64,000 nt of DNA from Heptranchias perlo (lineage: Eukaryota). The stretch is taken from positions 48,856,001 to 48,920,000 of the forward strand of contig NC_090344.1 in NCBI RefSeq assembly GCF_035084215.1, read 5' to 3'. The notes under the pieces were generated by a model. It saw only the letters and a program-made list of their open reading frames with translations, searched no databases and was not told the origin of the DNA. Both the position numbers and the translations under genes were made by a program. Below, piece by piece: positions 16,601 to 19,600 of the stretch; position 1 is the stretch's first letter, and every line of letters begins with the position of its first letter.

Positions 16601-19600
16601 GTTCACTGCCCTCCTGTCCTCCCTTAACCTCTCCCTCTACATAAATTTTCAAACCCATATTCATGGCCACACCCCTTAACCTTGCCATCTCACGTGATCT
16701 CTCTATTCCCATTGTGTAAGACCATCTCTGATCACTTCCTTGTATCCCTCACCACTCACATCCTCATTCCCCCTTCCAATCCCACTTCCTTCTGCATCCT
16801 CTCCTGGAAAAAACTCTCCCCCAAGTCACTTACAATGACACTTTCAAACTCCCAACTGTCGAGCCTTTGGCCCTCCATTCACAACGATACTTCTGCAGCT
16901 ACCGATCTGCTCAATCACACACTCACCTCCGCCTATGATGCCTGTCACCCAGTAAAACCCTCACTCTCTCCCACACTGGTCATTCCCCTTGGTACAGAAC
17001 CTATCTCTGCTCCCTTCAGTCCAAGGGACGCAGACTTGAACGCTTATGGTGCATAACAGGTTTAGCCATTCATCATCAGATCTGACTGGACCACATCATG
17101 CGCTATTGGGTCCTGCTACCCTCTGCCAAAACTGCTCACGACTCCAGGATCATCCTGCAATACAAAGATAATCCCTGGCTTCTCTTCTCCACTGTCAAAC
17201 CCCCCCTTAAACTCCTCTACCCTGCCCTCCAACAATAAGTGCGAGGAGCTCATGGACTTCTTTGCCACTAAGATTGAGACCATTGTTCAGCTGTCTCTGC
17301 CGCATCCCTCCCTCCCACTTGTCCACCAAGCCAAGCTTCCCCCAAGGTTCCCATCTCTCCTATCTCCCCTCATGCTCTCTCCAAGCCCATCTTGTCCATG
17401 AGATCCTCCTCCCGCTCTCTCAACTCTATTCCCACTAAACTGCTGACCAGCCTTCCTGGCCCCAATGCTAGCTGATATTGTGAACGGTTCCCTCTCCTCA
17501 GGTACTGTCCCCCTCCCTTTTGAAATCGGCCATTACCAACTCCTCCTCAAAAAACCACCTTTGACCCCTCTGTCCTTGTAAACTACCACCCCATCTCCAA
17601 CCTCCCTTTCCTCTCCAATGTCCTTGAACATGTTGTCACCTCCCAAATCTGTTCCCATCTTTCTCGCAACTTTATTTTTGAACCTCTCCAATCAGGTTTC
17701 CACCCCTGCCACAACATTGAAATGGCCCTTATCAAAGTCATAAATACCATCCTATGTGACTGTGACGATGGTAAACTATCCCTCCTCATCCTTCTCGATT
17801 AGTCTTTGACACAGTTGACCACACTATCCTCCTCCAACGCCTCTCCTCCGTCGTCCAGCTGAGTGGGACCGCGCTCACCTGGTTCCATTCCTATCTATCT
17901 AGTCATAGCCAAAGAATCACCTGCAATGGCTTCTCATCCCGCCTCTGCACTATTACCTCTGGAGTCCCCCAAGGATCTATCCTTGGCTCCCTCCTATTTC
18001 TCATCTACGTGCTGCCCCTCGATGCCATCATCTGAAAACACTCTCTGCTCTTGCAAATGGCCTCCTTCTGTGCCATTACCATTCTATGATTCTATGATTG
18101 TAACACAATATCCGGTTCCATATGTACGCTGATGACACCCAGTTCTACCGCACCAACAGTTCTCTTGACCCCTCCACTGCCTTTGCGTTGTCAGATTGCT
18201 TGTCCGACAGCCAGTCCTGAATAATTGTAAACAATTTTACAACACCAAGTTATAGTCCAGCAATTTTATTTTAAATTCACAAGCTTTCGGAGGCTTCCTC
18301 CTTCGTCAGGTAAATGTTTTGAATATGTCCTGAATAAGACAACATTTCCTCCATTTAAACATTGGGAGGACTGAAGCCTGAAGACTGAACAGGGCAGATG
18401 CTATTTTAACGTTGCGACCATACAGCACAGTTTGGATCCGCGAGTTTATTTAAAGGGAGCAGCTGATAAAAACGATGCATTCTTTATGCAGAGTACTGTG
18501 GTTGGCCAGTGAGAATAGTCACAATTTAAGTGTAAGTGCAAGGTTGGTGGAAGGTTTACTGAGCACATAACAAATGTTACCATACTGAGTAGCACAAGTG
18601 AATGGGATCACACAGTGTAAGATCTAGAAAACAGAGAGCACCATTATCAACAATCTAAAGGAGCTTTACACAATGTTCCTGTTACTCTGGTTTTCTAGCT
18701 GTGAGGCTCCACAAACAAAGATTAGCAAACAAATTGGAGTGGATTATCAGCTTTGATTGTGTTTGGGTGTTTGACCTCCAACTTTCAAAAAAAATCAACA
18801 GCCTTAATCTGTGGATTATTCAGCCATTAGTCAGTGGATTAATGTTCTTTCATTAAATTACTACCATATTCAAAGTGAAGAAAATTAAATTTTTTATCAA
18901 AAGCAAAGCATAGCTGCTCATTCTGACTTAAACATCGTGCTGTTAAAATGCAGCATGCATCACTATTTGTTTGCACAGGATATGGCATGTTCAGAGCTAT
19001 GAGTATTGAGGACTGTGCTGATCACGAGAACAAGCCTATTATATGTCAGTAGGATCGAGGCTAACAGCAGTGCAAACTTGCTGTTTTCACATGTTGTCAA
19101 AATAATCTTTGAAAGCATGCATCCTATTGAAAAAATAGATCGATGAGTTTGGGCAGTCTTCATCCAATTCCTATTGAGGAATCAACACACACCATACAGC
19201 ACAAAACAATAATTCAACTTTAACTGGCACTAAATTCCCAATCTCAGTCAGAGAGGTCCCAGGATGGCTGGTGTGGGAGTTGGAGGAAAAAATGAAAAAA
19301 GTCACTTTGGGGCATCAGGGGACATTCTCCTGAGGCTGCAGATTGAGGCATATCATTGGAGCAGTGTAGAGGGCTGTATTTTGACATAGAATTTACAGCA
19401 CAGAAACAGGCATTCAGCCCAACTGGTCTATGCCAATGTTTATGCTCCTCACGAGCCTCCTCCCACCCTACTTCATCTAACTCTATCAGCATATCGTTCT
19501 ATTCCTTTCTCTCTCGTGTACTTATCTAGTTTCCCCTTAAGTGCATTCATGCAAGTCGCCTCAGCTGCTCCCTGTGGTTGCGAGTTCCACTTTCTAACCA

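What the first reader, a model, noticed from the sequence alone, without database searches (positions are those of the whole stretch)
18214..18337. Independent solo copy whose differences fall only at hammerhead-tolerant positions
Seen: a 102-bp insert with its own 11-bp TSD splits an L2 relic. Over the shared 92 nt it differs from the 22.9-kb copy at core position N7 (CUGACGA vs CUGAGGA), loop II (GAAGC vs AAAAU) and one stem I pair (A-U vs G-U). The flanks, GGAG/CUCC and GAAAGCUU are unchanged. Inference: this pattern is what selection on the RNA structure predicts, and it suggests at least two recently active subfamilies.
Basis: partly seen in the sequence, partly recalled or inferred. Interest (0 to 1): 0.75.

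Follow-up and report, generated by a model that had tools for sequence, protein, structure and literature searches.

The report
Penelope retrotransposon stub with hammerhead variant
This 102-base insert is one of tens of thousands of short end-pieces of a young Penelope-type jumping gene, and the variants of its small, predicted self-cutting RNA that spread through the genome keep that RNA's fold, which likely reflects selection but is a pattern already known for this class.

Summary
Observation confirmed: 102-bp insert, 11-bp TSD, five differences from the 22.9-kb copy as listed. It is not an independent element but the terminal repeat (pLTR) of an autonomous Penelope-like retrotransposon (3.08-kb tandem units, intact 902-aa RT + GIY-YIG ORF). 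The hammerhead motif occurs 80,718 times; the two haplotypes have 992 and 6,456 exact 78-nt matches, among many more haplotypes. Selection on the fold is supported by copies, not by this pair: 9 of 9 common alleles keep the fold versus 6 of 14 rare ones (p=0.007); stem II pair 10.3-11.3 is G-C in 2,530 and A·C in 77. Against: the loop-closing pair is A·C in 7,695; unchanged flanks and core are expected at the 0.5-2% background; events are few and related. The solo starts 31 nt after its subfamily's TATA box, where 45 of 127 at-risk 5' ends stop, so it is likely a run-off copy of the RNA leader. Hammerheads with covariation in PLE pLTRs are published (PMC4209133), and this scan noted the same family, covariation and run-off reading on other DNA of this genome. 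Ordinary in kind; residual interest: a fast-evolving promoter/hammerhead zone.

The parts
18214..18224 (.). Target-site duplication, left copy (11 bp)
18327..18337 (.). Target-site duplication, right copy (11 bp)
18225..18318 (-). 94-nt pLTR piece of a Penelope-like element, short 3' end (no tail); 5' end 31 nt after the first T of the subfamily's TATA box (predicted RNA start)
18319..18326 (-). 8-nt filler at the 5' junction, not in the subfamily's upstream sequence, resembling the target site
18275..18315 (-). Minimal type I hammerhead: stem I 18315-18310 with 18280-18275; CUGACGA 18309-18303 (N7 = 18305); extra A 18302; stem II/loop 18301-18289; GAAA 18288-18285; palindrome AAGCUU 18286-18281; predicted cut between 18281 and 18280
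   Evidence: activity untested
18226..18241 (-). Small predicted hairpin ending at the short 3' end; loop-closing pair is A-U in 17, G-U in 2, G-C in 4 of 23 aligned copies; candidate reverse-transcription start signal (inferred)
17805..18213 (+). Decayed non-LTR (L2-like) reverse transcriptase relic that received the insertion; continues after 18337
22846..23074 (.). Comparison copy: fold-back insertion, short arm 22848-22939 (-) and arm with 38-nt tail about 22940-23074 (+); 13-bp TSD 22833-22845 and 23075-23087

Best explanation
The insert is the terminal repeat of a young, very abundant endonuclease-bearing Penelope-like retrotransposon, likely copied by the element's own enzyme from the short leader of its RNA, and its differences from the 22.9-kb copy are inherited subfamily alleles that selection on the parent elements likely confined to positions that keep the predicted hammerhead fold. 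Shown: identity with the parent's pLTR, intact parent ORF, TSD, subfamily counts, fold-compatible common alleles. Inferred: the endonuclease nicked the target; reverse transcription began inside the RNA at the first of two sites (short end, at the foot of a small hairpin; the second site is 38 nt further, at the ORF start codon) and ran to the RNA 5' end about 30 nt after a TATA box; the copy is dead on arrival, so selection acted on full-length masters, not on this copy. Untested: self-cleavage and the true transcription start.
For: Parent: 3,081-bp tandem units with a 902-aa ORF, RVT_1 E 3e-10, GIY-YIG E 3.5e-4, just under the cut-off; the insert matches the sequence between stop codon and next ATG. 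Copy numbers: 47,612 for a 27-nt flank word, 80,718 for the hammerhead motif. Pooled sample chosen by flank only, 147 copies spanning the hammerhead: 9 of 9 alleles in at least 5 copies tolerated, 6 of 14 rarer ones, Fisher p=0.007. Pair 10.3-11.3: G-C 2,530, A·C 77, G-U in 7 of 77 random copies. On 23 hand-picked representatives 93.3% of cells pair, covariation score 0.263 against 0.212 shuffled (0 of 500) and at most 0.107 when slid. Intermediates between the two haplotypes exist (G-C, G-U, A-U at the loop-closing pair). 5' ends: 45 of 127 at-risk copies stop at TATA +29..+33, 0.084 per nt against 0.013 upstream, p=3e-14; the peak follows the TATA box, not the hammerhead, in two groups with different spacers (18:6 versus 8:27, p=1e-4). 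Two 3' ends 38 nt apart; 60 of 60 inverted pairs have one short and one tailed arm, matching the two internal RT start sites reported in PMC11167929.
Against: The loop-closing pair is A·C in 7,695 of 80,718 motifs, so two of the five differences are not under strict pairing. Pair-level measures do not beat shuffles (3 pairs with two-sided change, 268 of 500), copies are related and the G-C subfamily may be one event; one of the three two-sided pairs sits beside a 1-nt insertion. Using only the six 5' core positions, absence of variation has P=0.06. Outer stem I pair 2.5 is unpaired in 10 of 23 representatives. Both 5'-end peaks lie in A or T runs, and group II has a smaller peak at a repeat of the same run (7 of 31 at +14..+18). 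Only 1 of 99 random copies starts within 1 nt of the predicted cut. No Rfam hammerhead model matched. The biochemical work cited is on a Poseidon element; this parent may be of another clade.
Confidence: 0.75

Rival explanations
1. Ordinary 5' truncation of the 3' end of a long transcript: the short copies stop in A/T runs by microhomology with AT-rich targets, and the match to TATA +30 is coincidence.
For: 5' truncation is the textbook state of PLE copies (PMC8557442 passages); ends are spread from +46 to far upstream; secondary peak at a second ATTTC run; filler at this junction resembles the target.
Against: Six-fold step in stopping rate at +29..+33 in both spacer groups; the A/T-rich TATA box itself shows no peak (4 of 60 at-risk copies stop at +8..-1).
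Confidence: 0.25
2. The pattern reflects constraint on DNA or RNA sequence motifs (promoter, RT binding) or homogenisation by template switching, not a working ribozyme fold.
For: Everything 3' of GAAA is frozen (0 of 64 differences) even between groups whose upstream 3' UTR differs at 36-37 of 191 positions; four-gamete combinations of N7 with stem I type; 5 of 46 inverted pairs carry two different haplotypes; hammerhead mutants did not affect insertion in vitro (PMC11167929).
Against: One-sided changes keep wobble pairs at 2.2, 2.3, 2.6 and 10.3 in every carrier; two-sided change at 10.3-11.3 with the mismatch class not amplified; in older subfamilies the flank varies while the core does not.
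Confidence: 0.15
3. A self-propagating non-autonomous mini-element or retrozyme with its own fixed ends.
For: Many copies are about 95 or 135 nt with TSDs.
Against: Copies of the same haplotype extend up to 2.6 kb into the PLE ORF; the TATA box lies outside the short copies; no tandem unit here; 5' ends are heterogeneous.
Confidence: 0.03

Closest known systems
Minimal type I hammerheads (min-HHR) in pLTRs of metazoan PLEs (Cervera and de la Pena 2014, PMC4209133; parts 1-2 of 4 read)
   Same: Core boxes, extra nucleotide between 9 and 10.1, G10.1-C11.1, palindromic loop 3, short helix I, thousands of mostly single copies, consensus families with covariation, high within-genome variability.
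   Different: Far more copies (80,718 versus about 4,000-9,000 reported for coelacanth and Xenopus); helix II only 4-5 bp; U at position 17; no shark genome named in the parts read.
EN+ Penelope-like elements with partial tandems, inverted 5' copy, one-sided 30-40-nt tail, solo pLTRs (PMC8557442 and PMC3846280, passages; PMC2377424, passages)
   Same: Single RT + C-terminal GIY-YIG ORF, tandem units, inverted copies, 38-nt tail, TSDs, TATA/Inr-like motifs in the pLTR.
   Different: Cys-rich linker at residues 753-785 points to the Neptune or Nematis clade rather than Poseidon (no tree made); hammerhead lies wholly in the leader, upstream of the ATG.
Poseidon PAc of Anolis (Frangieh et al. 2024, PMC11167929; parts 1-2 of 4 read)
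   Same: Two 3' ends matching two internal RT start sites, a stem-loop at the start site, AT-rich targets.
   Different: In PAc the ORF starts inside the hammerhead and RT starts 111-118 nt into the ORF; here the two ends lie at and 38 nt before the ATG.
Non-LTR retrozymes (bioRxiv 10.64898/2026.07.22.740005; part 1 of 5 and passages)
   Same: Type I hammerhead, PLE pLTR origin.
   Different: Retrozymes are tandem arrays; this is a single dispersed copy.

Membership tests
EN+ Penelope-like element (insertion product) | Parent with one ORF: RT plus C-terminal GIY-YIG endonuclease | tested here: met
   902 aa; RVT_1 40.5 bits; GIY-YIG 21.3 bits, cut-off 22.6, E 3.5e-4
EN+ Penelope-like element (insertion product) | Tandem or partial-tandem units forming pLTRs | tested here: met
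   3,081-bp period in L091
EN+ Penelope-like element (insertion product) | Optional 30-40-nt tail at one end; inverted 5' copies | tested here: met
   Ends cluster at 14-19 and 51-55 nt after the anchor; 60 of 60 inverted pairs one-sided; this copy has the short end
EN+ Penelope-like element (insertion product) | Target-site duplication | tested here: met
   11 bp
Neptune/Nematis versus Penelope/Poseidon clade | Zn-finger-like linker motif and RT phylogeny | tested here: inconclusive
   Cys at 753, 758, 761, 785 seen by eye; no tree against reference elements
min-HHR of PLEs | Core boxes CUGANGA, GAAA, UH; extra nucleotide 9.1; G10.1-C11.1; palindromic loop 3 | tested here: met
   invariant in 23 of 23 representatives except N7
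min-HHR of PLEs | Helices I and II supported by variation | tested here: met
   fifth stem II pair and outer stem I pairs optional
min-HHR of PLEs | Dimeric fold through extended helix III | tested here: inconclusive
   Cofolding two copies gave a stem II-swapped dimer, not the helix III duplex
min-HHR of PLEs | Self-cleavage after position 17 | not testable with these tools
   No raw RNA reads; 1 of 99 copies starts at the predicted cut
Rfam hammerhead families | Match to a curated covariance model | tested here: not met
   No hit at gathering score or at E up to 10
Non-LTR retrozyme | Tandem array with at least two hammerhead-bearing units | tested here: not met
   Single copy with unique flanks

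The most novel reading that the evidence does not exclude
The promoter and 5' half of the hammerhead form an 80-nt zone that turns over about 8 to 25 times faster than the rest of the element (10 of 81 positions between these two subfamilies, against 3 of 191 upstream, 3 of 600 in the ORF and 0 of 64 downstream), stepping only through fold-keeping intermediates: an arms race or module swapping at the leader under a strict ribozyme constraint, recorded in tens of thousands of run-off copies that map the RNA start and both priming sites in vivo.
Probability: 0.3. Interest if true: 0.55.

Novelty: new member of a known kind. Interest (0 to 1): 0.3.

Why it matters
The role of the hammerhead in Penelope-like elements is open: activity in vitro is low (PMC4209133) and mutants did not affect insertion in vitro (PMC11167929). 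A young family with 80,000 motifs, intact masters and a graded series of natural variants shows the fold is likely still maintained and supplies ready test variants. The single insert is ordinary.

Tried and rejected
Rfam: no hammerhead hit; sub-threshold miRNA hits are the 22.9-kb palindrome. PDB sequence search with the parent ORF: 0 hits. Sequencing runs: no RNA holder listed, contigs only, so no evidence on start, cut or expression. My first impression that all copies share one fixed 5' end was a query artefact; the flank-selected sample shows a peak on a broad spread. My hope that the fifth stem II pair covaries strictly was rejected (7,695 A·C; in the first 100 motifs, counted by eye: 44 G-C, 24 A-U, 12 G-U, 3 C-G, 15 A·C, 2 G·G). 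My early label 'Poseidon' was dropped for the Cys-rich linker. No complete ORF of the solo haplotype among 20 stretches fetched; longest 2.6 kb. ORF tree of 45 copies is mostly unresolved. The 3'-end tally was off register and was redone. Rows dropped: 23 of 100 random copies do not span the hammerhead or are duplicates; C1 duplicates removed by flank. Samples require an exact 27-nt flank word and so under-represent older subfamilies. R-scape was not available. Literature searches listed no paper on this family or on 5' ends at TATA +30; subscription papers such as Arkhipova 2006 are not held, and supplements were not read.

Full report
Observation. The insert, its 11-bp TSD and the host RT relic are as described. 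Read on the minus strand it differs from the 22.9-kb arm at five positions within 19 nt: stem I 2.2, N7 and three in the stem II loop region. RNAfold gives stems I and II for the solo (z -2.05 for 62 nt). Rfam has no matching model. Eight 5' bases are filler.

What it is. A 27-nt word of the 3' flank occurs 47,612 times in the 3.25-Gb genome. Some copies lie in 3,081-bp tandem units with an intact 902-aa ORF carrying RT and GIY-YIG domains: an endonuclease-bearing Penelope-like element, whose Cys-rich linker suggests the Neptune or Nematis clade (criterion from PMC8557442 passages). The insert is the part of the pLTR from just upstream of the hammerhead to the first of two 3' ends; the second end adds 38 nt up to the ATG. 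The motif has the marks of PLE minimal hammerheads given in PMC4209133. Earlier scan notes call the genome a shark; I did not test that.

Subfamilies. Exact 78-nt matches: 992 for the solo haplotype, 6,456 for the 22.9-kb one. In a random sample keyed on flanking bases (100 of 135 matches listed and fetched; 77 span the hammerhead) there are 25 haplotypes, 9 seen at least twice; the solo's exact haplotype was in 0 of 77, against about 2% expected. The solo haplotype has linked upstream alleles and long copies with an open frame 98% identical to the intact ORF over 752 aa; no complete copy was found in 20 stretches. So there are at least two, in fact many, young subfamilies.

Selection. For the pair alone the chance of all five changes being tolerated is 0.005-0.025, and unchanged core and flank carry no weight: the two subfamilies differ at 3 of 600 ORF sites and about 2% of the 3' UTR, so no change in 13 core or 50 flank sites has P of 0.33-0.88. 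Across 147 flank-selected copies, 9 of 9 common alleles keep the fold against 6 of 14 rare ones (p=0.007); rare ones include core hits, as neutral decay predicts. Genome-wide, pair 10.3-11.3 is G-C in 2,530 and A·C in 77 of 80,718 motifs. On 23 representatives chosen by hand, cell-level covariation exceeds all 500 shuffles but pair-level counts do not. Against strict pairing, the loop-closing pair is A·C in 7,695 and pair 2.5 is open in 10 of 23. Verdict: moderate support for selection on inner stems and core in master elements.

How the copy arose (inferred). 5' ends pile up 29-33 nt after the TATA box: 45 of 127 copies at risk, six times the upstream rate, and the peak shifts with the spacer length between two groups. 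The solo starts at +31. All 60 inverted pairs among 99 random copies have one short and one tailed arm. With internal priming at two sites shown in vitro for a Poseidon element (PMC11167929) and a promoter in the pLTR (PMC2377424 and PMC3846280 passages), the simplest reading is a run-off copy of the RNA leader. A small hairpin with one compensatory pair ends at the short 3' end and may explain part of the frozen flank. Truncation at A/T runs remains a rival; no RNA data could decide. There is no peak at the predicted cut (1 of 99).

Unexplained. Between the two subfamilies 10 of 81 positions differ from TATA-20 to stem II, against 3 of 191 upstream and 0 of 64 downstream; the zone was chosen after seeing the data. 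Five of 46 inverted pairs carry two haplotypes, so templates mix. PMC4209133 already remarks on high within-genome variability of these motifs.

Novelty. A new member of a known kind. I reached the run-off reading before the look-up, but the scan had noted the same family, its covariation and that reading on other DNA of this genome; those notes are not independent support. My searches listed no paper on this family. Hammerhead numbering follows PMC4209133; the tolerance of N7 and of bases at 17 is recalled, not from a call. Interest 0.3.

Noticed in passing
window 50290-64000: Array of about 330 copies of a 40-bp unit, about 95% alike, GC skew about +0.77.
   Followed up: no
window 22846-23074: Fold-back PLE insertion with 13-bp TSD, one short and one tailed arm, both starting near the predicted RNA start.
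   Followed up: partly
G000:C1 4.436-4.468 Mb and 3.123-3.129 Mb (L091, L092, L106): Several full-length copies with intact 902-aa ORFs, some in identical tandem: candidate active masters.
   Followed up: partly
L147, L183, L189, L209, L214: Two arms of one insertion carry different hammerhead haplotypes (5 of 46 pairs; 2 more differ by CpG-type changes), suggesting two templates per event.
   Followed up: partly
L089, L157, L158, L167, L252: A second, unrelated minimal-hammerhead family with another stem II and 3' flank, probably another PLE.
   Followed up: no
L136, L200, L205, L222: Group II copies have an ORF end only about 1% from group I but a 3' UTR/promoter about 19-35% different: possible pLTR module swapping.
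   Followed up: partly
window 10822-11128 and 33525-33831: 307-nt repeat pair, 99% identical, inverted: another young dispersed element.
   Followed up: no
window about 18036-18112: The host RT relic seems interrupted a second time by unrelated sequence just upstream of its YADD motif.
   Followed up: no
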